Shown one piece after another: positions 1,396-58,681 of a DNA stretch of 64,000 bases. Origin of the DNA: Heterodontus francisci (taxonomy: Eukaryota). The notes beneath the pieces are model-generated. The model was given only the letters and a program-made list of their open reading frames with translations, did not search any database and was not told where the DNA came from. Location of the stretch: positions 28,828,034 through 28,892,033 of the forward strand of contig NC_090397.1 in assembly GCF_036365525.1 (NCBI RefSeq). The letters are read 5' to 3'. A program made the translations under genes and the position numbers. Each line of letters starts with the position of its first letter. Position 1 is the first letter of the stretch.

Positions 1396-1513
1396 CTTCT
1401 GGAAGGGAAGGATGAAATACAAGCCGGAGGGATCCTTGATCTCATCGATCTGGTTGGAAGTGAAGGTTTTGAGACGAGCTGTCCTCGACCGGAACTGGCA
1501 GTTGGGCAAAACG
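1396..1513 (-). CDS. ACTR6: Actin-related protein 6, coding exon 2 (118 nt); gene continues beyond the left edge
   Basis: TTTCTTACAG acceptor after a 100-nt intron. Encodes (S)VLPNCQFRSRTARLKTFTSNQIDEIKDPSGLYFILPFQK in phase with exon 1 (68+118=186 nt). Donor AAG|GTGGGT. Confidence 0.95.
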
Positions 1514-1613
1514 CTGTAAGAAAGGGGGGAGAGGAAGAGATGAATGTCGGCGGCCTTCAGGCAGAGGAAGGAACGGCTGCAGGCCCAAGCCGGGGCCTCT
1601 ATTTATCACGCAC

Positions 1614-1681
1614 CTCACTCGCTTGTCGCTGAAACCGATCTTGGCCGTGTTCGCGCCGTTATCCAGCACCAAAGTCTCCAT
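1614..1681 (-). CDS. ACTR6: Actin-related protein 6, coding exon 1 (68 nt)
   Basis: ATG at 1681 gives METLVLDNGANTAKIGFSDKRV, matching the recalled ACTR6 N-terminus (MTTLVLDNGAYNAKIGYS). GT donor (GAG|GTGCGT) at 1613-1612. Confidence 0.95.
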
Positions 1682-1810
1682 CACCGTATCACCATCACCG
1701 CCTGTCTCAGCGCAGCCGATCAACCGCCGTCTTCCTGTCCGCCCTCTTTATCATTCCCCACTCTTCAAAACATCGCTTTAAAGTTCCGGATAATCAGACG
1801 TTTGGTTGCT
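1682..1810 (-). promoter_or_regulatory. ACTR6 5' UTR / CpG-rich promoter region
   Basis: CpG-dense stretch about 1350-1800 directly upstream of the ATG; ETS-type CCGGAA core on the minus strand near 1783-1788. TSS not determinable. Confidence 0.55.
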
Positions 1811-7250: not shown

Positions 7251-8243
7251 TGTAACGGAAACCACACCTGCCAAAATGAGATATTAATTTTGTCATATGG
7301 AACATTATTTTTGAACTGTTACTGGACTTGAAAAAACTTGTTTAAAAAGACCACAACAGTGGCTGAAAACATGGCTGCACATTTGCATTCTAAAAGACAG
7401 TTGCATGAAGAAGACAATGGGAGTATTCCCTGATTCAATTAGCAAGATGGATTTTATCCATAGTGATGATCAAGAAACATTGAGAGTCATTGAGCCAGCA
7501 TCCAACCCCCCCACTGACAGTGTCTGTTGAGCTTGAAGAAATCCACATTTCGCAGGCAAGGTGCTCTAAACAACATGACTAACCTACTGGCCAACCTGGG
7601 GTTTTTTTGAATTATGTCTGATACAGAACAGTTTTGGAAGAGACTGCAACTGAACTTCAAGATGAGAGCATCCCTCCCTCTCGCACAAAGTTCCAGGGAC
7701 CCACGGAAGTAACTTAAGCCTCAAGACAGAAGACCAGCGAAACAAGTTTGAAAGTGTGCACTGGGCCCCAACGAGAACTGCAAGACTTAACTTCAATCAA
7801 AGACTTTACATCCAATCCAAAACCAGTAACTGAACTCCAGCTATTACTTCAAACCTTTCCCCTTCTTTCTCTGCGTTAACTCTGCTTCTGTCTCCATAGA
7901 TGCTGCCAGACCTGCTGAGTATTTCCAGCATTTCTTGTTTTTATCCCTTCTTTCTCCTCCTCTGTCTCTATTTGTGTGTTTATCGCATATGCATGCTAGC
8001 GTTGTGTATTTTTAGTAGTTTTAACTGAATTAGAGTTTTAAGGTTAATAAACTTACACCTTGTTTAAATCTGAAAAAACCTGTCTAGTTGATTTCTTTGC
8101 TATTACAATTAGAGAGCAGTAAGCAAGGACTCACTGAGAGGGAAGCTAAAGCACAGTGTTTTAAAAAGTTAAACCCTGTTACATCCAAACCAGGAAGAGG
8201 CTGAGAGGAGAGCCCTAGACCCCTTCCTCACCTGGTCGTAACA
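7251..8243 (+). mobile_element. Solo LTR (probably Gypsy-type), with nested 73-bp Penelope-tail insertion
   Basis: TGTAACG...CGTAACA termini; 4-bp TSD ACCT (7247-7250, 8244-8247); internal AATAAA near 8046; homologous to 39342-40120. Confidence 0.85.
7872..7944 (+). mobile_element. Penelope-like terminal-repeat fragment
   Basis: Near-identical to 10705-10775; 12-bp TSD CCCTTCTTTCTC (7860-7871, 7945-7956). Confidence 0.85.
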
Positions 8244-9159: not shown

Positions 9160-9290
9160 AAAAAGCTGCAGATGTTAGAAACCTGAAATAAAACAGTAAG
9201 TATGGAAACTTTCAGCAGATCTGGCAGCATCTGTGGAAAAAGGAGAAAGATTAGTATTTCAGATCTTATGACTCTTCATCAGAACTGGGA
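9160..9290 (-). mobile_element. Older Penelope-like terminal repeat with decayed hammerhead motif
   Basis: Reverse complement reads CCAGTTCTGATGAAGAGTCATAAGATCTGAAATAC...CCACAGATGCTGCCAGATCTGCTGA. Confidence 0.7.
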
Positions 9291-10200
9291 ATTGTTGTAG
9301 AAGAATGGCTCATAAGGAGGAACAGAGCAAGGGAAAAGGTTTGGCAGGGGTGGGAATAGCAGGGGAAAATGGCCACATCCAGAAGATAAAAGAAAGAATG
9401 ATCTGTTAAGTGAAATGGAGAACAGGAGATGATTAAATTACTTCAATGTGAAAGAAAATTAGACAGAGTACAAATCGGACTGCTGATTTGCTATTGTTTG
9501 TTTTGCTATCTCCCAGGATGAATTATACCCCACATACCTTCTGTCAGGGGATGATGTAGTGCTGTGCAAGATAATTGGCATCAGTGTGTGGTTAGAAAGA
9601 AGTGTAAAAACTATATATTTAACATCTGAATGGGCTTTGGAGAATACATGAACTGTCTAGCAAAAATATTCTGCATCTGACGCCGGTGGGGTCCTTCTTT
9701 AAATATAGAGATGGGGGATCTGATGCCATCATAGGGCCGACCTACTATTTTAGCTGGAGGCCTGAGCAGGAAAGCCATTCCCTCCAGGTCCACCTAGCAG
9801 GAAAAAGAGTGAGGGTCGAATAGGCAATTTGTAAAAGCTTTTCTTTGAACTTTTTTTGTGGGGCCAGGACAGGGCAGGAAAATTTAAGGCTTTCCTGTCC
9901 CAGGCTCCCCCGCCCCCCACCCTCATCCTTGATCACAAGACCCTTTTGAAACCCCCTCCCCGTGATTTACTCTTAAAAGTTGACACAGCCTCTGCTTCAA
10001 TCACTAACTCCAGTAATGCATTCCACAGCTCACAACAGTTCTCTTTTTTTTAAAAGAAGTTTCTCCTTCTGTTGCATTTAATCTTATATCTATATCCCTT
10101 CATTTTAGACCCCTCAACCACTGGAAACTGTCTGTTTCAATATACCATGCCCCATCCCTTCATATTTTACATACCTCTATCAAATCACCCTATCATTTCA

Positions 10201-10814
10201 GCAGGTCTGGCAGCATCTGTGGAGAGAGAAGCAGAGTTAACGTTTCAGGTCAGTGACCCTTCATCAAACAGAAGCAAGCTTGAGGAACAGCATCTCATTT
10301 ACCGATTAGGCACACTACAGTCTGCCGGACTGACCATTGAGTTCAATCATTTCAGAGCATGACAGCCCCCCATTTTACTTTTATTTTTAGTTCTTTTTTC
10401 TTTTTTATATATTTTGTGTTTATTTTATTTTATCTTAATTTGTTCAGTTTGCCTACCCACTTTTCTCATGTTTGTACTTGTGGCTGTTCAGTTTTCAGTT
10501 CGTTAACACCCTATCTTGTCTTTCAACACACCATTAACATATTGTTTGCCTTTGCTCCATAACCTTCTGGTCGGTTATTCTCGGCGACCTTGTCCTATCT
10601 ACGCCTTCTGCTTTGTTATCTCTTGCCCCACCCCCCTTTACTTGCTTAAAACCTTTTACATTTCTAATATATGCTAGTTCTGATGAAGGGTCACTGACCT
10701 GAAACGTTAACTCTGCTTCTCTCTCCACAGATGCTGCCAGACCTGCTGAGTATTTCCAGCATTTCTTGTTTTTATTTCAGATTTCCAGCATCTGCAGTAT
10801 TTTGCTTTTATTTT
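10201..10814 (+). mobile_element. Penelope-like element, 5'-truncated, with inverted terminal segment; nested in an old antisense CR1
   Basis: 10201-10266 is the reverse complement of 10681-10746. KLEEQHLIYRLGTLQSAGLTIEFNHFRA* resembles the PLE GIY-YIG endonuclease C-terminus. 14-bp TSD ACCCTATCATTTCA (10187-10200, 10815-10828). Confidence 0.88.
10676..10712 (+). ncRNA. Minimal type I hammerhead ribozyme motif
   Basis: AGTT-CTGATGA-AGGGTCACTGACCT-GAAA-CGTT-AACT: both core boxes, stem II hairpin (GGTC/GACC), stem I AGTT/AACT, palindromic ACGT in place of stem III, GUU cleavage triplet ending 10708. Confidence 0.72.
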
Positions 10815-12307
10815 ACCCTATCATTTCATCTGTTCTATGAAACAGTCACAATTTTTCAAACGTCTTCAAATTTGTATTTGCTCAGTCAAGCATCATTGAG
10901 TCAGTCTGTGAAGTACTCTTCCTATTGCCACAATATCCTTCCTTTTGAGTGGTGTCCCAAAGTGCTTGCAGTACTGCACCATGTTATTAACATAGTTTTA
11001 TATAGATTTGCCATTCCTTCTTGACTTTTAAATAAATAAAATATTTGCCATTCCTTCTTAACTTTTATACCATGCACTTCTTGCCATAACACCCAGTATT
11101 CCATTAGATTTTTATGGCCTTATCCACTGGAGATGTTGCTTTTAATGTGAACCTGAACCACTAACTTCTTCTGCACATCACCTAGTCTTCCTCATTCAAA
11201 GTATAAATATTATTTTTTTAACCATAAATGTACCACCTTGCACTTACTGACATTGAATCTATTTACTTATCCAAACATATTTTCTTGCAGCTTTCTTTGG
11301 TCCTCAGAATTAGTTATTATGCCTCAGAACTTAGTATCATCTACGAGCTTGAACACCATTGCCTCTAACCCTTCGTTCAAAACTGTGTATACGCAGTGAA
11401 CAGAGTGGTTCCAGAACCAAACCACATTGGACACTGCTACCCATTCCCAACACTCTGAAAACTTGGTTTCCTCCCTTCTAACCATTTTTAAATACAATTT
11501 TCCACCCTTGCTCCTAATTCCGCAATACTTTCCAGTGTATTACCTTTCCAAAGGCTTTCTGAAAATCCAAGTATACCACATTCATTGCATTTTCACGCAT
11601 CCACATTATCTGTCACCTTCTCAGAATTCTATCAGATTTGTAAAGCACAATCTTCCTTTTTGAAATCCATATTGGCTGCATCTAATAATTTTCTCTCCAT
11701 CCTGATATATAGAAACATCTTTAATTAAAGATTCCACTGATAATTACCCAGGTTGGCTCTCTGATCAAACTGAGAAACTGATCCTAGCCCATTGTTGCAG
11801 CTTGCAGCAGACCAATTGAGCAAGTCTCTCATCTTGATTCCATTCTCTCCCTTCGACCACTAATAATGCTTCGCATTTCTACTGTCCCTTACCTTTTATG
11901 TGATCCCACAGACTCCCTTTATCTTTTCATTTAAAACTCTTTCAGGAAAGTCATGCACAAGTTCTCCTGTTAATATCGGTAAAAATCAGTACCCCTATCC
12001 TACAGCACAATAGTAGGTCTACAAAAATGTTACAAAGAAACCACTGATGGTAAGATATGTACACAGCTGTAAATAAATTGGTACTAATACAAGGGCCCTA
12101 AAACAGCTGCCACCAGTGTTTTTAAAAGAACCTTACACATTGCTATCTGCTTAGCACCACTTTCCTCCAGCTGCAAGGGACGTGAAAAAAAACAAGACCT
12201 GTATTGAGAGGAGTGTATGCAAACTTCTATTTTTAGTAATAGGTGTTGTGTGGCTTCGTATCCCAGTGCCATCAAAGGGTGGCAGTACAGCAGAAGACTC
12301 TCAAATA

Positions 12308-12426
12308 CCTCAACTGACCTGAACCGTTAACTCTGCTTCTCTCTCCACAGATGCTGCCAGACCTGCTGAGTTTTTCCAGCTGTTTTTATTTCAGATTTCC
12401 AGCATCCGCAGTATTTTGCTTTTATT
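12308..12426 (+). mobile_element. Penelope-like terminal-repeat fragment
   Basis: Matches 10693-10812; 10-bp TSD CTCTCAAATA (12298-12307, 12427-12436). Confidence 0.8.
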
Positions 12427-12699
12427 CTCTCAAATAAACCCTTGAATTAATTTAAAATGAATATTTCAGAATTTAACGACTGTCAGCTGGAAGTTTGTGT
12501 TCATGGTGCAGCGATAAAAACAGGACATTTGCATCCCGAATAGATGGGTACAAATTGTACAGTTCCTCCGATGGGTTTGCATTTTTGTTATAATTCAACG
12601 TTTCTTGATCAGTGCATGTGTGAACTTTAAGTGAGTAACTGTTCTGTGTGACTAATATTGGAGTGACAGTGCCTAAGTAGTGGTTGATGGAGTAGTAAC

Positions 12700-13052
12700 G
12701 GCAGACAGGCAATGGTAACGTTTGCAGAGTGCTGGGGGGAGGAGGGGAATGAAACAGCGCCAAGCGGCAGCTCCGCAGGAGGACTGTGTAGCGTTTGTCG
12801 GTTCCCATGGAGACAGCCCAGCCCGGGCTATCACGTGACGCCGCTTCCCCTAGCAACAAAGTAAAGGTCTGCAGGTTCTACGTCACATCCGTCAACAAAC
12901 AGGTCGAGCTCCTGAGTGAGGGCATCAGGAGGGGGAGGGCTGGCGGCAGCTGCAGGGACAAGGCTACATTTGTGGCAATATCATAGCGGCTTTACCGGAC
13001 GGAACGCACTGTGAAAACAACATTAGCGGCTGTTGAAGCTTCTAGCCGCCAG
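12700..13052 (+). promoter_or_regulatory. TCP11L2: TCP11L2 CpG-island promoter and probable non-coding exon 1
   Basis: CpG/GC-rich island (about 12700-13310) with X-box-like GTTCCCATGGAGAC (12801-12814), E-box TCACGTGAC (12831-12839), CCTAGCAAC (to 12857) and TACGTCA (12879-12885). Strong donor CAG|GTAAGG at 13052/13053. Confidence 0.7.
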
Positions 13053-14533
13053 GTAAGGTTGAAGATGTGCAGAGGGTGAGTCTCGGTGACTGTTTTCCCC
13101 CCCCACCCCCCGGGCGGAGTGGAGTCGCCGGGACCCTGCGGCGACAGGAGCGGGGCAGCAGGCTGGCGGAGCCCCTTTAACCGGGAGCGAGCCTGGTCCC
13201 CGGATCGGCACCGTCCGCTCTGCTCACCTGCCACGACTGGCATTCGGGCCTCGGTTCCTCTCCGCCTGGTTGCCCAACTTTGACACTGTTTATGCCCGGA
13301 CTGCGCACTTTAAATTGCTGATAAACGAGGGGGTTTTGTTCGGGTGAGACTCTGTTTGGAAAGGGTCAAATTCCCCCTCCCGTGTAGACCGGGTGGGCTC
13401 GGGTTAGTGGCTGGGCTCTTCGCCTTGCCCTGTTTGTGCAGCTGCTGATTTTTTTTTTCTTGCTTGTTGTGGTCGCTCTGATCACATGAGTGCCTGCATG
13501 ACGTGGGAAGAGGAGCTTTACGGCTGAGCATCAACTCGCCAAAGCCAGCCATCTATGGCCGTGTTGTTGAACCGAGTGCAGGAAGCAGCCTCCTGAGAGC
13601 TGGCATTGCAGGGAACTCACTCATTCCGTCACTGACCATTCTCATTCCTCCGGCTACTCCAGGGTTTGTCGCTGTAATTCCGGTTTGCCTCCTGTATTTG
13701 TAAACAGCCTTTGTAGTAGTTTGTACACGAGTACTTGCTGAACTGCAGCTGTCTGAAGTTTGTTTTTTGAGTATCAACCATAAAGGTCACGCATGAGCTG
13801 GTGAAAGCAATCATATATTGGCTGAAAGGACTGCTGTGTGATTTAGTGCTAAGTGTATATTCCTTATTCAAAACCGCATACAGTTACTTGGTACTTAAAA
13901 CCAGGGGTCGGGGTGTGTTGTTACTGGGATTTTGATGAAATATAGTGATGGACATGTTTCCTGTAGGGTTGCACTGAGGGTCAAGACCAAGTGTGGTTTT
14001 CAGGTTAGGCGTGATGCGTGGGTGGGGGGATAATCAGACAAGGGTGTACAAACATAATTCAGCCCTCATTTTAAAGTCAGACATTATGTCCTTATTTTAA
14101 TATTTATTATAAATTCATATGACCACGTTTGTTATATAAGCGTATCTTGTAATTGTACGCTCCTGCCAGTAGCTGCACTGCAGCACTTTCACTAGGGGAG
14201 GGTCTAGTTGCAGAACGACGTTTTCATAGGCAGTTAAATATGTGACCATGAGAATCCATAAGGAAAAGTGTTGAGAGGAAGTGCGTGCAGATGCCAGAAG
14301 TTTAATCTGACTGACCGGTTCAGTTTCTGCAGCATAGATTGTGTACTATGAAATCAATTCTAGAAAGTAATGAACAAACACTTCAATCGCATAATTCTGC
14401 AGTTGAAATTAGCGGAGATAAAGATGTCTAGGGAAAAGACTGGTATGCAGAAAGACTATTAGGAAATTGTGTTGGGATATCAATGGACACGTTTGATTTA
14501 CTGTATTTTAAGCATTCTCAGAAACATCAGATT

Positions 14534-16231
14534 CTTCTTTCTTCTTTGGCCTCCTTGTCTCGCGAGACAATGGATACGCGTCTGGAGGTGGTCAGTGGTT
14601 TGTGGAGCAGCGCCTGGAGTGGCTATAAAGGCCAATTCTAGAGTGACAGACTCTTCCACAGGTGCTGCAGATAAAATTGGTTGTCGGGGCTGTTAGACAG
14701 TTGGCTCTCCCCTTGCGCTTCTGTCTTTTTTCCTGCCAACTGCTAAGTCTCTTTGACTCGCCACACTTTAGCCCCGCCTTTATGGCTGCCCGCAAGCTCT
14801 GGCGATCGCTGGTAACTGACTCCCACGACTTGTGATCAATGTCACAGGACTTCATGTCACGTTTGCAGACTTTAAAGCGGAGACATGGACAGCCGGTGGG
14901 TCTGATACCAGTGACGAGCTCGCTGTACAATGTGTCTTTGGGGATCCTGCCATCTTCCATGCGGCTCACATGGCAAAGCCATCTCCAGCACTGCTGGCTC
15001 AGTAGTGTGTATATGCTGGGGATGTTGGCCGTCTCGAGGACTTCTGTGTTGGAGATACAGTCCTGCCACCTGATGCCAAGGATTCTCCGGAGGCAGCGAA
15101 GATGGAATGAATTGAGACGTTGCTCTTGGCTGACATACGTTGTCCAGGCCTCGCTGCCGTAGAGCAAGGTACTGAGGACACAGGCTTGATACGCTCGGAC
15201 CTTTGTGTTCCGTGTCAGTGCGCCATTTTCCCACACACTCTTGGCCAGTTCTGGACATAGCAGTGGAAGCCTTTTCCATGCGCTTGTTGATTTCTGCAGT
15301 GAGAGAAAGGTTACTGGTGATAGTTGAGCCTCGGTAGGTGAACCCTTGAACCACTTCCAGAGCGTGGTCGCCGATATTGTTGGATGGAGCATTTCTGACC
15401 TCCTGCCCCATGATGTTTGTTTTCTTGAGGCTTATAGGCCAAATTCATTGCAGGCAGCCGCAATCCTGTCGATGAGTCTCTGCAGACACTCTTCAGTGTG
15501 AGATGTTAATGCAGCATCGTCAGCAAAGAGAAGTTCCCTGTTGAGGACTTTCTGTACTTTGGTCTTCGCTCTTAAACAGGCAAGGTTGAAAAACCTGCCA
15601 CCTGATCTTGTGCAGAGGAAAATTCCTTCTTCTGAAGACTTGAACGCATGTGAGAGCAGCAGGGAGAAGAAGATCCCAAACAGTGTAGGTGCGAGAACAC
15701 AGCCCTGTTTCACGCCACTCAGGATAGGAAAGGGGTCTGATGAGGCACCGCTATGCTGAATTGTGCCTTTCATATTGTCATGGAATGAGGTGAGGATACT
15801 TAGTAGCTTTGGTGGACAGCCGATCTTTTCTAGTAGTCTGAAGAGACCACGTCTGCTGACGAGGTCAAAGGCTTTGGTGAGATCAATGAAAGCAACGTAG
15901 AGGGGCATCAGTAGTTCACGGCATTTCTCCTGTAGCTGGCGAAGGGAGAACAGCATGTCAATGGTCGATCTCTGCACGAAAGCCACACTATGCCTCAGGG
16001 TAGACACGCTTAGCCAGCTTCTGGAGCCTGTTTAAAGCGACTCAAGCGAAGACTTTCCCCACTGTGCTGAGCAGGGAGATTCCACGGTAGTTGTTGCGGT
16101 CACCCTTGTTCTTATAGAGGGTGATGATATTGGCATCGCGCATGTCCTGTGGTACTGCTCCCTCATCCCAACACAGGCAAAGCAGTTCGTACAGTGCTGA
16201 AAGTATAGCAGGCTTGGCACTCTTGATTATT
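14534..16231 (-). mobile_element. RTE-clade LINE, 5'-truncated, frameshifted
   Basis: FIDLTKAFD, GVKQGCVLAP, LFADD and C-terminal CSTCGRVCHSRIGLYSH; GAA-rich tail; flanking TCAGATT (14527-14533, 16232-16238). Confidence 0.92.
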
Positions 16232-20670: not shown

Positions 20671-22128
20671 TTAGAATTAGAACATTACAGCGCAGTACAG
20701 GCCCTTCGGCCCTCGATGTTGCGCCGACCTGTGAAACCATCTGACCTACACTATTCCATTTTCATCCATATGTCTATCCAATGACCACTTAAATGCCCTT
20801 AAAGTTGGCGAGTCTACTACTGTTGCAGGCAGGGCGTTCCACGCCCCTACTACTCTGAGTAAAGAAACTACCTCTGACATCTGTCCTATATCTATCACCC
20901 CTCAACTTAAAGCTATGTCCCCTCGTGTTTGCCATCACCATCCGAGGAAAAAGACTCTCACTATCCACCCTATCTAACCCTCTGATTATCTTATATGTCT
21001 CTATTAAGTCACCTCTCCTCCTCCTTCTCTCCAACGAAAACAACCTCAAGTCCCTCAGCCTTTCCTCGTAAGACCTTCCCTCCATACCAGGCAACATCCT
21101 AGTAAATCTCCTCTGCACCCTTTCCGTAGCTTCCACATCCTTCCTATAATGCGGTGACCAGAACTGCACGCAATACTCCAGGTGCGGTCTCACCAGAGTT
21201 TTGTACAGCTGCAGCATGACATCGTGGCTCCGAAACTCGATCCCCCTACTAATAAAAGCTAACACACCATATGCCTTCTTAACAGCCCTATTAACCTGGG
21301 TAGCAACCTTCAGGGATTTATGTACCTGGACGCCAAGATCTCTCTGTTCATCTACACTACCAAGAATCTTCCCATTAGCCCAGTACTCTGCATTCCTGTT
21401 ACTCCTTCCAAAGTGAATCACCTCACACTTTTCCGCATTAAACCCCATTTGCCATCTCTCAGCCCAGCTCTGCAGCCTATCTATGTCCCTCTGTACCCTA
21501 CAACATCCTTCGGCACTATCCACAACTCCACCGACCTTCGTGTCATCCGCAAATTTACTAACTCACCCTTCTACACCCTCTTCCAGGTCATTTATAAAAA
21601 TGACAAACAGCAGTGGCCCCAAAACAGATCCTTGCGGTACTCCGCTAGTAACTAAACTCCAGGATGAACATTTGCCATCAACCACCACCCTCTGTCTTCT
21701 TTCAGCTAGCCAATTTCTGATCCAAAGCTCTAAATCACCTTCAACCCCATACTTACGTATTTTCTGCAATAGCCTACCGTGGGGAACCTTATCAAACGCC
21801 TTACTGAAATCCATATACACCACATCCACTGCTTTACCCTCATCCACCTGTTTGGTCACCTTCTCGAAAAACTCAATAAGGTTTGTGAGGCACGACCTAC
21901 CCTTCACAAAACCGTGCTGACTATCGCTAATGAACTTATTCTTTTCAAGATGATTATACATCCTGTCTCTTATAACCTTTTCCAACATTTTACCCACAAC
22001 CGAAGTAAGGCTCACAGGTCTATAATTACCAGGGCTGTCTCTACTCCCCTTCTTGAACAAGGGGACAACATTTGCTATCCTCCAGTCTTCCGGCACTATT
22101 CCTGTCGACAATGACGACATAAAGATCA
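20671..22128 (-). mobile_element. Young CR1 LINE, 5'-truncated
   Basis: Nearly uninterrupted RT ([34 protein letters not shown]); one in-frame TGA at 21563-21565 and a late frameshift; CpGs retained; (TTCTAA)2 tail. Confidence 0.95.
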
Positions 22129-24371
22129 ATGTTTGTTTGTTTTACTTAACAATTGAGTGATGTCCAGTTACCATGATGATTAAAAAAAAATGTTCAAAGG
22201 TATAAGATTGATACAGTATTTAAATAAGTACTAAAGGACCCAGTCAGATTTGATGTTCGTACCTTCTAGACATTGGACTACCCAATTTACATCAATTAGC
22301 CTAAATGGTTTTGAACTTATTGAATTCAGGAGCAAGAAATTTGTGTTTTTTTTTGTTCTCCACAATGCCAAATGGAGTTAAAATATTCCATCACAGGGTT
22401 GAAGGAACAGTGAGGTTGCTAATATTGACCTTCTGAGTATTTGCAATCTTCTGCAATTTTCACCACTTGCTTATCCCAGTGTAAATCACCAAACCAAGAA
22501 TGTGAATGCTTGTTTATAATTGAACAGCACTCACAGTCCAATGAGTAGAAGAAGGCCAATATTGCAGACTGAAAGTTACTGTCTTAGTATCACTGTGCTG
22601 TAGATAACCCATCTTCTGTTTTATGTCTGTCTAAAGTGATTTGATTGTCCCTTATCTTGGATGGCTAGGTGACGGCACCTTCTGCTTATTGAAGACATGC
22701 ACTTGGTTAATGGCATCCACCACATCATTGATTAGGATAGTAAACCAAGTATATTTACCTAAAGTGCACCTGTATAGATGCAAAATAAAATGGAGGTTTG
22801 TTTTATCGTGACCTAATGTTTACGTCCTCCTGAGGATTGTCCGCCCGAGGATAACATGCATCTAATTAACAATTCACTACAAGAAAAGACCAGTTTCTCT
22901 CAAGGCAAGAATGCTGCACGCCAGTAAAGGCCCCAAAATTCCAAGGGCTGCTGTTGTAAGTTCTTACTAGATATGGAGAGAATTTCTGTGTTTCTGCACT
23001 GTGAATTTGACCATATCATCAGTGATCAGACTTGCTTTCAAGCCAAATTGGCGATCAAAGGTGATTTTTAATTTCAGATAAGCTTTTCATTCAGTATGAT
23101 TTTTATGGCCTTTGACACCATTGTCAGGGAGATTGAAGGCCTGGGCCGTTAAAAGCATGAAGTTGAAAGCAATGGAGAAATGAAAAATTCTGAGGCAGAG
23201 TAAACATAGGGTGAAGGAAGAGATTCAGAAGTTAGGACTATTTCTGTTGCCTGTTATTCTTGCGATTGAAACACTATCTCCTCATGCTCTTAGAGGTACA
23301 TCATTCTGTAGCTGGAGTTCAAGTTTGAACCTTGAATGAGCCACTAATAGGTGGTTGGAGACATTAATTTTCTTCCTGCTCAAGGTGAGGGACTAGCTGG
23401 AGAGTGAAAAGCTTCCACCTTTTAAGTCTAAGCCGGATACGAAATAAAATGCTTTCTATTTCAGCTCAAGCTGCCTTAACATCAGCTTCAGAAGAGAATC
23501 TTATACTATGCCGGTGTGGCATTTGTTTCTCATATCAGTGTGGCCGCCTTGTCTTCCTGAATAAAATTATTCATTTTTGTAATTGAAAGAAGTCTTCTGA
23601 TGTGGATGGTTGGCAATTAGGAGCTGAGTTGAGATTTCCTCATAGTCATTTAACTTGGGACTCTTACAGCTAGAAGAAGAGCCTTTGATCCCATCCATAT
23701 AGGCTGGATTCAGATTCAGGTTCCAAAAGTTAGAGGATGCTGCCTTAACCCACTCTACTATCCAACCCCCTTGTTTACTTCATTAGACAGGGGAAATGAG
23801 CATTTGGGCATAAATCCAAAAATAGTAATTGCTGAGACTTGAGTAGGAGTTGAGCCTTGGGGAAACTGGGACACATGGGACATGGGTCAAAATCCTGGAA
23901 CTCCCTTCCTAACAGCACTGTAGATGTACCTACCCCACATGGACTGCAGTGGTTCAAGAAGGCAGCTCACCACCACCTTCTCGAGGGCAATTGGAAATGG
24001 GCAATAAATGCTGGCCTGGCCAGCGACGCCCACATCCCATGAATGAATAAAAAAAAATAAAATCAAGATCTATCTGGAATTCTGAATGTAATCTTGGATA
24101 TGCTGCCACATGGCAGGAAAATGTTAGCAAGTGCTTATGCAAGATAAAAAGCCATCTTACTCGCATTTTTGCTACATGTGTGGTATGCATTCTCACACTT
24201 TCCTCCTCACCTGGTTTTAATGGAAGTACTAAATTGTAGATGTTAATGTTGAATAGCTGGAGTAAGATGTGTATTCCTACACAAGTGATAGTTATGAGCA
24301 GTTGCATGTTTATGCTGAGACTTTCCAGAGTATGAATCGTCAAAAGTTATTTTTTGGTTTTGTCACTGCAG

Positions 24372-27500: not shown

Positions 27501-27633
27501 TATATATGGAAATTCACTTTGTTCTCATTTTACGTGGACTGTGTCACAGGAGATGCACTCATTACTATAATCTACCAATCTTAAAGCCATTCCAATAAAT
27601 ACTAGGCCTGACCAGCTTCTCATAAATCTATAA

Positions 27634-27856
27634 AAAGAAAAATACTGCAGATGTTGAAAATCTGAAATAAAAAGAGAAAATGCTGGAAACACTTAGCACG
27701 TCAGGCAGCAACCCTGGAGAGAGGAAGGTAGAGTTAACATTTCAAATCAATGACTTTAGGTTTAAATGGAAGGTCATTAACCTGAACTGTTAACCTTACC
27801 TTCCTCCCTCTACAGATGGTGCCTACAAGCTTACTGTTTCAAGCATTTCTGTTTTT
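27634..27856. mobile_element. Foldback pair of Penelope-like terminal repeats
   Basis: Left arm is the minus-strand and right arm the plus-strand version of the 10680-10810 repeat; arms meet at the hammerhead region with almost no spacer. Confidence 0.7.
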
Positions 27857-28735
27857 AGAAATACAATTGGCTTTGAATTGCATTTATTTCTGGTAAAATT
27901 GCTTGCATTTCTTCCTTATAAAACCTGTTTTCAGTTCTTACTTTATAATCATGACATTTTAATAGGTCTATTATAGGCAGGATGAAGCCTCTGAGTCTAA
28001 AATTTAACAGTTGCAATTTAAAAAAAATAAACTTCAACTCTAATTTCCATATGTGTTTTTAGTTGCATTCTATTTTTGATGGCTGTCTTTAGTATTCAGT
28101 ACCTCATTTTTGATGGCTGTTTTCTATTGTGCATATGACGGTCAAATCTTATACTTAGAAAGTATGAATCTATTAATACTCTCCAGCTAATTACCTACGC
28201 TTAAATAAAGTCACACAGGAAACATTTAGCCCATTGCTTGAATTTGGTTTGGGAAGGGGTCTTAAAACCACTTTTTATTTTTCTCCAATATTCTCCCAAT
28301 CTCTCCTGGAGGTACAGCTTATGTTAGGATGTTTGTTTGTTCTCATGTACCTTTCTCAAATGGCCATTATCTACTGGTTGCCTTGATCTTGAGTATCAAC
28401 AGATAACTCAACAGTGGGAATGGCAGAAATCAAATGAGTGCCCAATTCTGTCCTCACTTGATACTCATGTGCAACTCCAGCATAAGTCACTGGATGATGA
28501 TAGGAATAGGAGCCCTGGCCCCGATTCATGGATGCTGTGGCCAAATGTGGTATTCACATTGCCACTTTAGCTAAGATCAACTAGTTCAGTATGGATCAGG
28601 GATTGAACCCTTCAAATTCTGTAGTAGTTGATTACAGATGACTAATGCGCAGGGGAGACTTGGTAGAAGAGAACTGCCCATGAGTCTCATGGCTGAATTT
28701 GGCTGACAATGAAATGAAGCTGCATTGGTCTAGTG

Positions 28736-50416: not shown

Positions 50417-51988
50417 TATGCAACAACTACCGTGGAATCTCCCTGCTCAGCATAGTGGGGAAAGTCTTTGCTCGAGTTGCTTTAAACAGGCTCCAGAAGC
50501 TGGCCGAGCGCGTATACCCTGATGCATAGTGTGGATTTCGTGCAGAGAGATCAACCATTGACATGCTGTTCTCCCTTCGTAAGCTACAGGGGAAATGCCG
50601 CGAACAACAGATGCCCCTCTACGTTGCTTTCATTGATCTTACCAAAGCCTTTGACCTCGTCAGCAGACGTGGTCTCTTCAGACTACTAGAAAAGATCCGA
50701 TGTCCACCAAAGCTATTAAGTATCATCACCTCATTCCATGACAATATGAAAGGCACAATTCAGCATAGCGGCACCTCATCAGACCCCTTTCCTATCCTGA
50801 GTGGCGTGAAACAGGGCTGTGTTCTCGCACCCACACTGTTTGGGATTTTCTTCTCCCTGCTGCTCTCACATGCGTTCAAGTCTTCAGAAGAAGGAAATTT
50901 CCTCCACACAAGATCAGGGGGCAGGTTGTTCAACCTTGCCTGTCTAAGAGCGAAGACCAAAATACGGAAAGTCCTCATCAGGGAACTCCTCTTTTCTGAC
51001 GATGCTGCTTTAACATCTCACACTGAAGAGTGTCTGCAGAGTCTCATCAACAGGTTTGCGGCTGCCTGCAACGGATTTGGCCTAACCATCAGCCTCAAGA
51101 AAACGACCATCATGGGACAGGACGTCAGAAATGCTCCATCCATCAATATCGGCAACGACGCTCTGGAAGTGGTTCAAGACTTCACCTACCTAGGCTCAAC
51201 TATCACCAGTAACCTGTCTCTCGATGCAGAAATCAACAAGCGCATGGGAAAGGCTTCCACTGCTACGTCCAGACTGGCCAAGAGAGTGTGGGAAAATGGC
51301 GCACTGACACGGAACACAAAGGTCCGAGTGTATCAAGCCTGTGTCCTCAGTACCTTGCTCTATGGCAGCGAGGCCTGGACAACGTATGTCAGCCAAGAGC
51401 GACGTCTCAATTCATTCCATCTTCACTGCCTCCGGAGAATCCTTGGCATCAGGTGGCAGGACCATATCACCAACACAGAAGCCCTCGAGGTGGCCAACAT
51501 CCCCAGCTTATACACACTACTGAGTCAGCGGTGCTTGAGATGGCTTGGCCATGTGAGTCGCATAGAAGATGGCAGGATCCCCAAAGACACATTGTACAGC
51601 GAGCTCGCCACTGGTATCAGACCCACCGGCCGTTCATGTCTCCGCTTTAAAGACGTCTGCAAACGCGACATGAAGTCCTGTGACATTGATCACAAGTCGT
51701 GGGAGTCAGTTGCCAGCGATCGCCAGAGCTGGCGGGCAGCCATAAAGGCGGGGCTAAAGTGTGGCGAGTCGAAGAGACTTAGCAGTTGGCAGGAAAAAAG
51801 ACAGAAGCACAAGGGGAGAGCCAACTGTGTAACAGCCTCGACAAACAATTTCTACTGCAGCACCTGTGGAAGAGTCTGTCACTCTAGAATTGGCCTTTAT
51901 AGCCACTCCAGGCGCTGCTCCACAAACCACTGACCACCTCCAGGCGCTTACCCATTGTCTCTCGAGACAAGGAGGCCAAAGAGAAGAG
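50417..51988 (+). mobile_element. RTE-clade LINE, 5'-truncated, with 456-codon open RT segment (50563-51933)
   Basis: Same family as 14534-16231; FSDD at the catalytic motif; upstream in-frame TAG; TSD AATAT(G/A)GTTAC (50406-50416, 51989-51999). Confidence 0.95.
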
Positions 51989-52599: not shown

Positions 52600-54760
52600 A
52601 TTTAAATTGGAGACCATGAGGTTTGTTTATTGTGGGATCTTTGCTAATGAGAAAGAAATATAACAGAGGAGCTAAGAGATGCAAAAAACTGCTTTTAAGC
52701 TTAAAAAAAATTCTGGCATTATATAGCTCGGTACAGGAACTACAAGGGCAGACAGAAGTGAAGGGATTTTTGAGGGTGAATAGATCTTATTTCAGTTAAT
52801 AAGTAATATAATTCCAGGTAAGTAATATGCTGAAATTAACGGCAAGCCTTGAGAATGAACATTCAGGGATTGGAGATTCTTACAATCAGTTTATATGACC
52901 AAGGCATGCCTGCTGAAAGAAGCCATGATAGTGGAGATATTGGATAGATTAAGACTGGTGAAAGGTGGGAAACCCTGTGTTGCGATCCAAACAAATTACA
53001 CTCATGAACAGATAGCAGGTACTGTCCAACATTGCAAAACCAAACATTGTCCTAGAAGTAAAATAGATTAACAAAAGAATACAGCCTGGACAAAGATGCA
53101 CTTTCCAGTTCAGAGAGATTGTAGGCATAGGCAATTCTTTGCTCATGAAAGTGTATCGCCATGTGTGATGCAAGGACAATACCTACATGATGGTGAGCTG
53201 ATTTCTCAAAGCTAGTTTAGTATAAAAGAAAGAAGAGATACTGAAGGAGACAATTAGGAATCCAGTAGCAGTAGTACACATCGGGTTAAATGACACAAGG
53301 AAAGCTAATATATAAGCTCTAAAAGCCACAAATGAGGATTGGCTCAAAACTTAAAGGGGATACTAATTGATATGCTTCCAGTATTTGGGAAATGAGGGGA
53401 GTTCACACAAAATATTGAGAAGTTAAATGAATGGCTGTGAACCTGGTATTAACACAGCAACGCCACCTTCATAAAGAGCTGGGAATCCTTCCCCAGAAGA
53501 AAAAAGACTGCCACAGGACAGATGAGGTGCATTTAATCAAGTAGGGAAGATGCAATTTGCAAGGAACATTGAGCTAGCAATAGAAAATCATTCAATGTCG
53601 ACAGGGTGGAGGAGGACAGGAAGTGTACAGCATCTCAGAATAGGGTAAAAGGCAGTCAACATGTATGTATGGACACACATACCCAGGAAGACATACATAA
53701 ACGAAAAGAAAAATACTGCGGATGCTAGAAATCTGAAATTAAAAACAGAAAATGCTGGAAATACTCAGCAGAGCAGGCAGCGTCTGTGGAGAGAGAAACA
53801 GAGTTAACATTTCAGGTTGATGATCTTTCATCGGAACCCCATTCTGATGAAAAGTAAGAGGTGGTATTGTCCTATATGTCACGGATTACTGGGAGAGAAC
53901 TTAAGTTGCAGAAAGTTATTTGCCAGTTTTGATGAAAAGTTATAGACCTGAAACATTACCTCTTTTCTCATTGTAGAAAGCTACAACGGAACTACTCTAA
54001 GTAGACATTACTAATAATAAAAAAAATCCAAGCTAACTTTAGGTGTATGCTATTGACCATCAAGTCAACATAGTTAGGAGAGCAAGTTTCTCTAAAGAGA
54101 TTGAAAGAATATGTGAGAACAGGAAGGGTATTTTAATGACAGACTTCAATTAGCCAAATATAAACCGGGAAAAGCCAAGTTTAAAGTCAAAGTTGGTAGA
54201 TATAATGCATGATAGTTGCTTTGATGTATTGGATCAGGAAGCAATGACAGATAATGCTCATCTTTAAACTGGTGATAATAAATAACCCAGAAAATCTATA
54301 AGAAATGGAAGTCTTATCAGCTCTGGGAACAGCGACCAGAGATAAAGTTTAACATGATCTGGAAGCAGAAACACCTAAAATCAAGAACCAGATGCATAAC
54401 TTAAAATGACTAATTTCAAGAAAATGAGGGAACAATTAAAGGAACTAAATTGGGGAGAGTTATTCTGCAATTCAGTAGAGGTCATATGGAATGTCATTAA
54501 TGCAAGATATTCCCCAAACCAACAAGTTCAGACGAAACAAATATGTTTCAAAATCATAGAATCTTACAGCCCAGAAGTCAACCATTCTGTTCATCATGCC
54601 AGTGTCTGCTCGCAAACGCCCCACTTTCCACATAGCCCTGCAATTTTTTCCCTTTCAAATATAAAATGAATTAAAAATCAAAAGTGAGATAAAACAAAAA
54701 ATAGCCTGTATGAATTTTGCAAAAGTGATACAAGAAAACGCAGAAACACATTGAAAAGGT
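52600..54760 (+). mobile_element. Highly decayed CR1-type LINE 5' region (ORF1 esterase and ORF2 endonuclease remnants)
   Basis: PVAVVHIGLND (about 53260-53293) and DEVHL resemble SGNH esterase blocks of CR1 ORF1; ILMTDFN*P near 54130 and NFKKMREQL...NW resemble APE/tether sequence. Confidence 0.5.
53705..53975. mobile_element. Foldback Penelope-like terminal repeats
   Basis: Minus-strand repeat 53705-53837, then plus-strand TTCTGATGAAAAG and CCAGTTTTGATGAAAAGTTATAGACCTGAAACATTA. Confidence 0.65.
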
Positions 54761-57074: not shown

Positions 57075-58367
57075 AACACAAGAACACAAGAAATAGGAGC
57101 AGGAGTAGACCATATGGCCCATCGAGCCTGCTCCACCATTCAAAACAATCACGGCTGATCTTAGGATTCAACTCCATTTTCCTCAATTCCCTGAGAAGTC
57201 AAAAATCTGTCTATCCCAGCCCTAAATGTACAAGGATGGAGCATCAACAACTGTCTGGGGTAGAGAATTCCAAAGATACACAATCCTTTGAATGAAATAA
57301 TTTCTCATCATCTCAGTCCTAAATGATCGGCCCCTTATCCTGAGACTTTGCCCCCGTGTTTTAGATTCCCTGACCAGTGAAAATAATCTCTCATTGTCTA
57401 CCCTATCAAGCCACTTTAAAATTTATATGTTTCAACGAGATCACCTCTCATTCTCCTCAACTCCGGAGAATACAAGCCCAATTTACTTAGTCTCTCATCA
57501 TAGGCCAATCCCCTCATCCCAGGGACCAATCTAGCGAACCTTTGCTGCACTGCCTCCAATGCAAGTATATCCTTTCTTAAATATGGAGACCAAAACTGCA
57601 CACAGTATTCCAGATATGGTCTCACCAAAATCTTGTACAAGTTTAGCATTACATCCTTATTCCTGTACTCCAATCCCCCTACAATAAAGGCCAACATGCC
57701 ATTTGACTTCCTGATTGCTTGCTGTACCTGCATGTTAATTTTCTGCGTTCCTTGTACAAGCACACCCACGTCTCTTTGAACATCGACACTTACAAGTTTC
57801 ACACCTTTTAAAAAATATTCTGCTTTTCTATTCTTACGACCAAAGCGTATAACTTTACACTTCCCTACATTATACTTAATTGGCCATCTTGTTGCCCACT
57901 CATTTAACCTGGCTATATCTGTTTGTGCCCTCTCTACAGCTTACCTTTCCACCTACCTTTGTATCATCAGCAAACTTAGATACTTTATTCTCTGTCTCTT
58001 CATCTAAGTCATTAATATAGATTCTAAATAGCTGAGGCCCCAGCACTGATCCTTGCAGCACTCCAATATTTACTGCCTGTCAACTTGAAATGCCCCATTT
58101 ATGCCCACTCGTTGCTTCCTATCTGTTAACCAATCATCTATCCATACAAATATATTACCCCCAACTCCATGAGCCCTTATTGTGCCAATTAACTTGTTGT
58201 GTGGCACCTTATCGAATGCCTTTTGGAAATCCAGGCATACTACATCTACTGGTTCCCCTATATCTATTCTACTAGTTACATCCTCAAAAAACTCTTAATA
58301 AATTTGTCAAACAGGATTTCCCTTTAGTAAAATCATGTTGACTTGTTCTAATCATACTGTGCTTTTC
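57075..58367 (-). mobile_element. CR1 LINE 3' portion
   Basis: QHDFTKGKSCLTNL, RPYLEYCVQFWSPYLRKDILALE motifs; TTCTTGTG repeat tail. Confidence 0.9.
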
Positions 58368-58678
58368 AAAGAAGAAGATTTTCAAAGTAAGAATGAGTTC
58401 AGCCAGGCAGAGGAGGGTGGTGGTTGATGAGGACTGGTGGGGCCTCCATTTAAGGAAGAAATGAAGGGCCTGCAGGCCATCTGGGTGCAGGATGGAGGTG
58501 TTGAGGGACTGGACATCCATGGTGAAAAGGAGACAGTGAGGGCCAGGAAACTGAAAACTGTTAAAGTGGCCGAGGGTGTGAGAAGGGTCCTGGATAGTCA
58601 GAAGAGACTGAATAAGGAGAGAAAATATAGAGTCGAGCTTGGAAGACATAAGTTCTGTGTTGAACAGGCTGAAACAAT
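58368..58678 (-). mobile_element. Penelope-like reverse transcriptase fragment
   Basis: LDSIFSLLIQSL...FQFPGPHCLLFTMDVQSLNTSILH...LAELILTL resembles the PLE RT (TMDVxSLYTSIPH motif). Confidence 0.8.
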
Positions 58679-58681
58679 TTT

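What the first reader, a model, noticed from the sequence alone, without database searches (positions are those of the whole stretch)
10676..10712. Intact minimal hammerhead ribozyme in a young Penelope-like element
Seen: CUGAUGA and GAAA cores, stem II hairpin, 4-bp stem I, a GUU triplet and a palindromic ACGU replacing stem III, in the 3' terminal repeat of an element with a perfect 14-bp TSD. Known: Penelope-like elements carry minimal type I hammerheads proposed to work as dimers through such palindromes. Inference: this is a candidate self-cleaving RNA about 2 kb upstream of the TCP11L2 promoter on the same strand. There is no tandem same-strand partner, so it would need trans-dimerisation. 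I do not know whether this shark family has been tested.
Basis: partly seen in the sequence, partly recalled or inferred. Interest (0 to 1): 0.7.

Follow-up and report, generated by a model that had tools for sequence, protein, structure and literature searches.

The report
Penelope hammerhead at likely RNA start
This hammerhead ribozyme motif is real but is one of tens of thousands of near-identical copies in the end repeat of a Penelope-type jumping gene, and because many genomic copies begin at the motif's first bases and very few at its predicted cut site, it likely marks the start of the element's RNA, which is likely copied into DNA uncut.

Summary
The motif is there as described. It is the known minimal hammerhead of Penelope-like element (PLE) end repeats, in a 614-bp truncated copy with a 14-bp target duplication. 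It is not special: 16,362 places match the same U4 core pattern and 36,661 a U4-to-C variant. Long copies encode RT, a Cx4CxxC linker and GIY-YIG (Neptune/Nematis type), and one partial tandem holds two hammerheads 3,616 nt apart, so a cis partner exists in parent elements. Of 136 copies, 49 begin at 10674-10682, the motif's first bases, 30 nt after a TATA-like box; 4 begin at the cut site, and genome-wide counts agree. So the motif is likely the first 37 nt of the transcript, and uncut RNA is likely what is copied. Cleavage is untested; the active dimer folds poorly. Nothing links this copy to the Tcp11-family gene 2.2 kb downstream beyond position. The scan noted the same family features before, in this and other genomes.

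The parts
10187..10200 (.). Left target-site duplication, 14 bp
   Evidence: Exact match to 10815-10828
10201..10266 (-). Inverted short arm, head to head with the main arm; equals 10681-10746 (10749 with 3 nt shared with the duplication). Starts at +6, so it lacks C3 and stem I 5' strand
   Evidence: 69 nt, 100% complementary
10267..10273 (.). 7-nt filler between the two arms, origin unexplained
   Evidence: Matches neither arm; splice-junction reading tested and not supported
10274..10362 (+). Last 28 codons and stop of the element's RT/GIY-YIG frame (5'-truncated)
   Evidence: Translation matches the C-terminus of long copies, 95.5% DNA identity; too short for a Pfam hit
10363..10675 (+). 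Upstream part of the end repeat (pLTR): 3' untranslated stretch and predicted promoter; C-rich box 10626-10634, TATA-like TTAAAA 10646-10651 (-30 to -25)
   Evidence: TTATAA in 34 and TTAAAA in 14 of 49 long copies at the variable position; promoter function inferred
10674..10680 (+). Initiator-like YYANWYY; predicted +1 = A10676, the first base of stem I
   Evidence: Motif (consensus recalled, weak alone); 49 of 136 copies begin at 10674-10682
10676..10712 (+). Minimal type I hammerhead motif; predicted cut after 10708
10713..10814 (+). Leader/tail after the ribozyme; family 3' ends cluster at 10772-10782 and 10807-10814, read as two reverse-transcription start sites about 35 nt apart
   Evidence: same signature as PAc in PMC11167929; in tandem copies it runs on into the ORF leader
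10815..10828 (.). Right target-site duplication, 14 bp
12313..12427 (+). Second, truncated copy on the same strand: no CUGANGA, A15.1 changed to C, but the triplet and stem I 3' strand are kept (12325-12332); own short duplication
12946..13052 (+). Likely first exon of the downstream Tcp11-family gene (neighbour, not part of the element)
   Evidence: Contig of a related organism covers 12946-13054; Tcp11 exons further down on +; link between them inferred

Best explanation
The motif is the minimal hammerhead in the end repeat of a truncated copy of a very abundant Penelope-like retrotransposon; it likely forms the first 37 bases of the element's RNA, is predicted to cut only slowly or with protein help, and was likely copied into the genome from uncut RNA. 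Mechanism, step by step. (1, inferred) In a partial tandem the upstream repeat supplies a polymerase II promoter (TATA-like box at -30, initiator at +1 = 10676), so the transcript runs ribozyme - tail - ORF - repeat - ribozyme - tail. (2, shown) Such tandems exist, with two motifs 3,616 nt apart. (3, inferred from copy ends and from PAc) The element's protein starts reverse transcription inside the tail, about +100 or +135. From the far tail it makes long, mostly truncated copies; from the near tail it runs off the RNA's 5' end and leaves 100-140-bp stubs that begin at the ribozyme. (4, inferred) The window element is one long arm plus one inverted run-off arm at one nick. (5, untested) The two motifs of one RNA could pair through ACGU and cut after +33, which would remove the cap and free a unit-length RNA; this is a minor or late step, not needed for insertion. 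This copy itself is likely a passive relic.
For: Copy 5' ends: 49 of 136 at 10674-10682 (0.053 per nt among copies at risk) against 4 at 10707-10712 (0.005), 20 at 10683-10706 (0.007) and 21 at 10277-10673 (0.001). Genome-wide: 5,168 and 6,814 hits for starts at +1 and +2, of which 96 and 88 of the 100 listed rows are true ends by my eye count; 1,854 hits at the cut site with about 14 of 100 true ends, and 1,591 at a control 2 nt downstream with 9-13 of 100. G before the first templated base in 54 of 100 and 51 of 100 rows, p 0.05 and 0.03 against dinucleotide background, as a copied cap would give. Bimodal 3' ends match the tail of PAc; PAc ribozyme mutants still insert, cleavage needs the protein, and no RNA reads ended at its cut site (PMC11167929). 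RT, linker and GIY-YIG in a long copy; tandem L181. U4-to-C in 36,661 against U4 in 16,362 hits and in the least diverged subfamily; U4C lowers activity in vitro (PMC3088659). Active dimer -8.5 kcal/mol against -23.6 for the best dimer and -7.3 for an inactive monomer fold.
Against: No RNA 5' end was seen: only contigs of related organisms were served. Starts are spread over about 9 nt, not one base. The extra-G excess is weak, and only 2 of 16 copies with a found duplication show exactly one extra G. The TATA-like box is imperfect and the initiator consensus is short. D. virilis Penelope has a TATA-less internal promoter with its start 46 nt before an intron (PMC2377424), a different layout. 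A linear RNA starting at +1 cannot by itself give the promoter-bearing upstream repeat of L181. The first sample came mostly from the first 7.6 Mb of one contig and was chosen by an exact tail anchor, so it favours young copies. RVT_1 and GIY-YIG scored below Pfam's cut-offs (E 0.002 each). Folding energies ignore core tertiary contacts and proteins.
Confidence: 0.7

Rival explanations
1. The motif is an active processing ribozyme: the two copies of one transcript cut as a dimer, the unit is ligated to a circle, and the circle is the template that yields partial tandems (the model proposed in PMC4209133). Re-ligation restores the site, so copies need not end at the cut.
For: Two motifs in cis 3,616 nt apart and a 689-bp direct repeat in L181; 10 of 11 invariant core positions and the palindrome are fixed across subfamilies; pair 10.1-11.1 changes without breaking (GC 14, GU 13, AU 12, other 3 of 42 rows); U4C still allows viroid infectivity.
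Against: A circle has no end at +1, yet about a third of copies start there; no excess of ends at the cut; poor predicted dimer; PAc inserts without cleavage in vitro. It may hold for the rare events that make tandems while the main reading holds for most copies.
Confidence: 0.2
2. The pile-up at 10674-10682 is not a transcription start but a stop of reverse transcriptase, or a nuclease block, at the 5' edge of the folded motif, or a 3' splice site (YAG at 10675-10677) as in D. virilis, where the intron ends at helix I.
For: YAG after a T-rich stretch; D. virilis precedent; starts spread over several bases.
Against: A polymerase moving 3' to 5' on RNA should stall at the 3' foot of a hairpin, not after it (general knowledge). 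No shared upstream exon in 30 of 56 junction-pattern loci read nor in the 200 rows. TATA-like box at exactly -30 and a slight G excess fit a start.
Confidence: 0.15
3. This particular copy has been co-opted: its promoter and ribozyme act on transcripts running towards the Tcp11-family gene, cutting in trans or using the truncated copy at 12313 as substrate.
For: Same strand, 2.2 kb upstream of the likely first exon; promoter-like part and core are intact; the 12313 copy keeps the substrate half.
Against: With 79,790 exact hits of a 33-nt tail anchor in 6.0 Gb, one copy within a few kb of a promoter is unremarkable. The heterodimer is weak (-4.4 against -11.0 kcal/mol). No transcript or orthologous conservation was shown.
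Confidence: 0.04

Closest known systems
Minimal hammerheads (min-HHR) in pLTRs of metazoan Penelope-like elements (Cervera and De la Pena 2014, PMC4209133; parts 1-2 of 4 read)
   Same: Type I, 4-bp helix I, unpaired base between 9 and 10.1, palindromic 15.2-16.2 with no helix III, in the repeat, mostly as single motifs of truncated copies, often a second one close by on the other strand.
   Different: This copy has G.U at 10.1-11.1 and a 5-bp helix II; most of the family has C at position 4. The parts read name fishes, coelacanth, Xenopus and reptiles, not sharks; the supplements were not read. No link of the motif to the transcription start is given there.
PAc, Poseidon element of Anolis carolinensis (Frangieh et al. 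2024, PMC11167929; parts 1-2 of 4 and passages read)
   Same: Hammerhead in the pLTR, two 3' end positions that define a tail, target-primed insertion from uncleaved RNA.
   Different: In PAc the ORF starts at stem II; here the long frame's ATG lies at about +173 (L164). This family has the Cx4CxxC linker of Neptune/Nematis. No start site was mapped for PAc in the text read.
Endonuclease-positive PLEs of the Neptune/Nematis type (Craig et al. 2021, PMC8557442; passages) and Adineta Pen2a_Av (PMC3846280; passages)
   Same: RT, zinc-finger-like linker, C-terminal GIY-YIG; partial tandems; inverted 5' copy; 30-40-bp tail; target duplication; putative TATA plus initiator in the pLTR (Pen2a_Av).
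   Different: No tree was built, so the clade rests on the linker motif. In the passages read the Adineta promoter is predicted from motifs only, with no copy-end evidence.
Penelope of Drosophila virilis (PMC2377424; passages)
   Same: Promoter in the repeat, close to the hammerhead.
   Different: TATA-less internal promoter, start 46 nt before a 75-nt intron that ends at helix I; here the predicted start is helix I itself and no upstream intron was found.

Membership tests
min-HHR of metazoan PLEs | Core C3-U4-G5-A6-N7-G8-A9 and G12-A13-A14-A15.1, U16.1-H17 | tested here: met
   Window copy has all; GUU is listed among cleavable NUH triplets in PMC3138052
min-HHR of metazoan PLEs | Short helix I (4-5 bp), unpaired base at the 5' end of helix II | tested here: met
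   4 bp; A10687, kept in 89 of 92 copies
min-HHR of metazoan PLEs | G10.1-C11.1 pair | tested here: inconclusive
   G.U in this copy; GC 14, GU 13, AU 12, other 3 of 42 distinct rows
min-HHR of metazoan PLEs | Palindromic 15.2-16.2 in place of helix III | tested here: met
   ACGU 10704-10707; C15.2 in 86 and G16.2 in 84 of 92 copies
min-HHR of metazoan PLEs | Position in the pLTR of a PLE, both repeats in tandem copies | tested here: met
   314 nt after the GIY-YIG stop here; both repeats of L181
min-HHR of metazoan PLEs | Self-cleavage as a dimer | not testable with these tools
   Only folding energies (unfavourable) and copy ends (no excess at the cut)
Canonical type I hammerhead (Rfam models) | Helix III and loop I-loop II contacts; Rfam match | tested here: not met
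   No hammerhead family among 3 matches at E<=10; no helix III in the monomer
EN+ PLE, Neptune/Nematis type | Single ORF with RT and C-terminal GIY-YIG | tested here: met
   L126:6418-7986: RVT_1 and GIY-YIG, each E 0.002 but under Pfam's cut-off; YIDD and YIGET motifs visible
EN+ PLE, Neptune/Nematis type | Cx2-5CxxC linker between RT and EN | tested here: met
   CNRRRCNTC in 3 of 3 long frames printed
EN+ PLE, Neptune/Nematis type | Partial tandem, inverted 5' copy, 30-40-bp tail | tested here: met
EN+ PLE, Neptune/Nematis type | Placement in the RT tree | not tested
   No reference proteins were fetched
Non-LTR retrozyme (tandem, ORF-less unit) | Head-to-tail repeats of a non-coding unit with a hammerhead | tested here: not met
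   This copy carries the ORF end and is not in an array; arrays elsewhere in the genome were not searched for

The most novel reading that the evidence does not exclude
In this vertebrate Penelope family the hammerhead is the capped first 37 bases of the transcript, a built-in self-decapping switch: uncut RNA is translated and copied, and the genome holds over ten thousand run-off stubs, the equivalent of retroviral strong-stop DNA, that map the start and both priming sites to a few bases. The most successful subfamily spread after weakening the switch (U4 to C), and a predicted 96-nt intron that holds both priming sites would separate the message from the template.
Probability: 0.4. Interest if true: 0.6.

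Novelty: new member of a known kind. Interest (0 to 1): 0.3.

Why it matters
The motif class is known since 2014, and this copy is one of tens of thousands. What could matter is the family record. The role of PLE hammerheads is open: PAc inserts without cleavage in vitro. Here copy ends in a genome point the same way in vivo, give a precise predicted start site, and supply a natural pair (U4 and C4 subfamilies) for one cleavage and transposition assay. My searches listed no paper whose title or abstract start reports a shark PLE hammerhead test or a start site at the ribozyme; subscription papers, including Lunse et al. 2017, and supplements were not seen.

Tried and rejected
Spliced copies with an upstream exon joined at 10677/10678: the junction pattern gave 56 hits, but in the 30 loci read the matching letters came from inverted arms or flanks and none showed a longer exon; with about 80,000 copies this is chance. 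Free-exon template ending at the predicted donor 10749/10750: 1 of 95 copies ends there, the window arm itself; in 100 listed rows about 8 are true ends by eye and none is a spliced junction. Rfam: no hammerhead. A first generic hammerhead scan returned nothing through a script error; the corrected scan found only this family in 1.05 Mb of loci, so cross-family covariation could not be tested. Alignment A1 was not used for pair counts because most rows were chosen by a pairing filter; A2 was used. RNA: 23 runs, all contigs, best share 0.33, related organisms; summed depth rises about tenfold at +1 in 4 of 4 runs, but contigs cannot show starts and intronic stubs would give the same; no GT-AG joint among the joints shown, 26 not shown. 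Cap-G by target duplication in the first samples was inconclusive. Look-up of earlier notes by sequence found nothing. Lunse et al. 2017 is not held; I know it only from the review PMC6765202. That U17 is the weakest H17 is recalled, not from a call.

Full report
Observation. The motif is at the stated place on the + strand: stem I (10676-10679 with 10709-10712), CUGAUGA, one unpaired A, a 5-bp stem II with a G.U first pair and a 3-nt loop, GAAA, ACGU, and U10708 as H17. My descriptor matched once in the window and never in 100 Markov resamples. Rfam did not detect it, as expected for a motif without helix III. The insertion spans 10201-10814 between exact 14-bp duplications. It consists of an inverted arm (10201-10266, equal to 10681-10746/49), 7 nt of filler, and a forward arm with the last 28 codons of the element's frame, the end repeat and the tail.

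The family. A 33-nt tail anchor has 79,790 exact hits in the 6.0-Gb genome. A 34-place pattern over the ribozyme gives 16,362 hits with U4 and 36,661 with C4. [quoted passage not shown] By the passages of PMC8557442 the linker marks Neptune or Nematis; no tree was built. One of 8 long loci fetched (L181) is a partial tandem: a 689-bp direct repeat, 97% identical, with two motifs 3,616 nt apart, both C4; its frame is broken. So parent elements have the dimer partner in cis. The window copy is 98% identical to its best relatives over 175 nt and 95.5-96% over longer stretches, and it carries the letters of the older U4 group (minor-letter fraction 0.065 in 34 copies against 0.014 in 51 C4 copies). 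U4 is inherited, not CpG decay of C4: 34 of 92 copies have T at 4 but only 2 have A at 5.

Conservation. In 92 copies reaching the motif's start, positions with one alternative letter at 10% or more are 4 of 37 in the motif (4, 7, 10.1, 11.1), 11 of 40 just upstream and 1 of 18 just downstream (read from the table). So the motif is better kept than the upstream part but not better than the tail, and one of the four changes hits an invariant base. On 42 distinct rows not filtered for pairing, 91.4% of cells pair, and only pair 10.1-11.1 shows repeated change on both sides (GC 14, GU 13, AU 12, other 3). That is about two events in the master line, not independent support. PMC3088659 states that U4C considerably lowers activity in vitro but still permits viroid infectivity (passage).

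Where copies begin. I took 138 copies from 87 loci chosen by the tail anchor or at arbitrary places, dropped 2 at locus edges, and mapped their 5' ends. Of 136, 49 begin at 10674-10682, 20 at 10683-10706, 4 at 10707-10712, 10 further down, 21 across 10277-10673, and 32 reach the end of the reference. Per base among copies at risk that is 0.053 at the motif's start, 0.005 at the cut and 0.001 upstream. Genome-wide patterns agree. Starts at +1 and +2 give 5,168 and 6,814 hits, with 96 and 88 of 100 listed rows being true ends (my eye count). The cut site gives 1,854 hits with about 14 of 100 true ends, half of them inverted arms joined through stem I microhomology; a control 2 nt downstream gives 1,591 with 9-13 of 100. 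So starts at the motif's edge outnumber starts at the cut about twentyfold per base, and the cut is within twofold of the control.

Why there. A TATA-like box lies at -30 to -25 of A10676 (TTATAA in 34, TTAAAA in 14 of 49 long copies, the latter in the window) and an initiator-like YYANWYY covers 10674-10680 (consensus motifs recalled). G precedes the first templated base in 54 and 51 of 100 rows against 45.5% and 41% expected (p 0.05 and 0.03); among 16 loci with a found duplication, 2 have exactly one extra G, 3 have longer inserts ending in G, 9 have no insert, and 2 have other inserts. This is suggestive only. The 3' ends are bimodal, about +100 and +135, the tail signature that PMC11167929 ties to two internal priming sites. 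The simplest reading is that the RNA starts at the ribozyme and that priming at the near tail runs off the 5' end. Any copy that holds both the tail and the core came from RNA that was uncut or re-ligated at 10708.

Can it cut? Nearest-neighbour folding puts the monomer in an inactive fold (-7.3 kcal/mol against -5.9 for the open target). The active dimer scores -8.5, against -23.6 for a dimer paired through the palindromic stem II. These numbers omit core contacts and protein. They agree with the low activity of min-HHR dimers (PMC4209133) and the protein dependence of the PAc ribozyme. In the 2026 preprint 10.64898/2026.07.22.740005, 1 of 9 Xenopus dimer elements cleaved (passage). Cleavage here is neither shown nor excluded.

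This locus. The copy keeps the predicted promoter, so it could fire towards the Tcp11-family gene, whose likely first exon is at 12946-13052. The only same-strand neighbour, 12313-12427, lacks the enzyme half; as a substrate it folds weakly (-4.4 against -11.0). The RNA runs served were contigs of related organisms and say nothing about this site. With this copy density, nearness to a promoter is expected by chance.

Papers seen: PMC4209133 and PMC11167929, parts 1-2 of 4 (the latter also passages); passages of PMC6155905, PMC8557442, PMC6765202, PMC2377424, PMC3846280, PMC3088659, PMC3138052 and the preprint; the rest as search listings only. No supplements were read; those of PMC4209133 and of the preprint (one chondrichthyan sampled) may list shark motifs.

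Earlier notes of the scan. I wrote down the start-site reading and the C4 subfamily before the look-ups. Searches then showed many AI notes with the same reading in this and other genomes; they are not independent support. They prompted the genome-wide extra-G and cut-site tests.

Verdict. A real motif and a new member of a known kind. The single copy is ordinary. The family's copy ends give a testable map of start, priming sites and uncut template. Interest 0.3.

Noticed in passing
L164:205-324 (window equivalents: ATG 10731, donor 10750): An ATG at +56 is in frame with the long frame's ATG at about +173 but is stopped by TAA; a GT..AG intron of 96 nt, same length in 4 of 4 copies that run on into the leader, would join them in frame, and both family 3' end clusters lie inside it. 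No spliced joint or spliced copy was seen.
   Followed up: partly
window 7874-7944 (+), 9160-9286 (-), 27633-27857, 53698-53963: Further truncated or older copies of the same family, some as head-to-head pairs; the 7874 copy begins 3-4 nt before the predicted cut.
   Followed up: partly
window 10688-10700 and 10703-10711: Stem II is a near-perfect palindrome, and two overlapping 6-nt palindromes span the cut site; these favour inactive dimers in folding.
   Followed up: partly
window 1442-1747 (-): Start of a frame that looks like an actin-related protein 6 first exon (name recalled; no Pfam hit), divergent from the Tcp11-family gene, which makes the element intergenic.
   Followed up: no
G000:C1:235840726-236110894: A cluster of at least 18 hits with A at position 17 or nearby changes, spaced 0.4-50 kb apart, suggests local amplification of copies with a GUA, AUA or non-cleavable triplet.
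   Followed up: no
L192, L194, L205, L207, L212 (around base 1500): Several stubs carry a short duplicate of their own first 5-10 bases just before +1, as from slippage or a template jump at the RNA's 5' end.
   Followed up: no
window 14592-16031 (-), 50530-51933 (+), 20789-22141 (-), 58284-58679 (-): Other retroelement frames: two RTE-like copies, CR1-like fragments (names recalled from the translations) and an older RT fragment of this PLE family.
   Followed up: no
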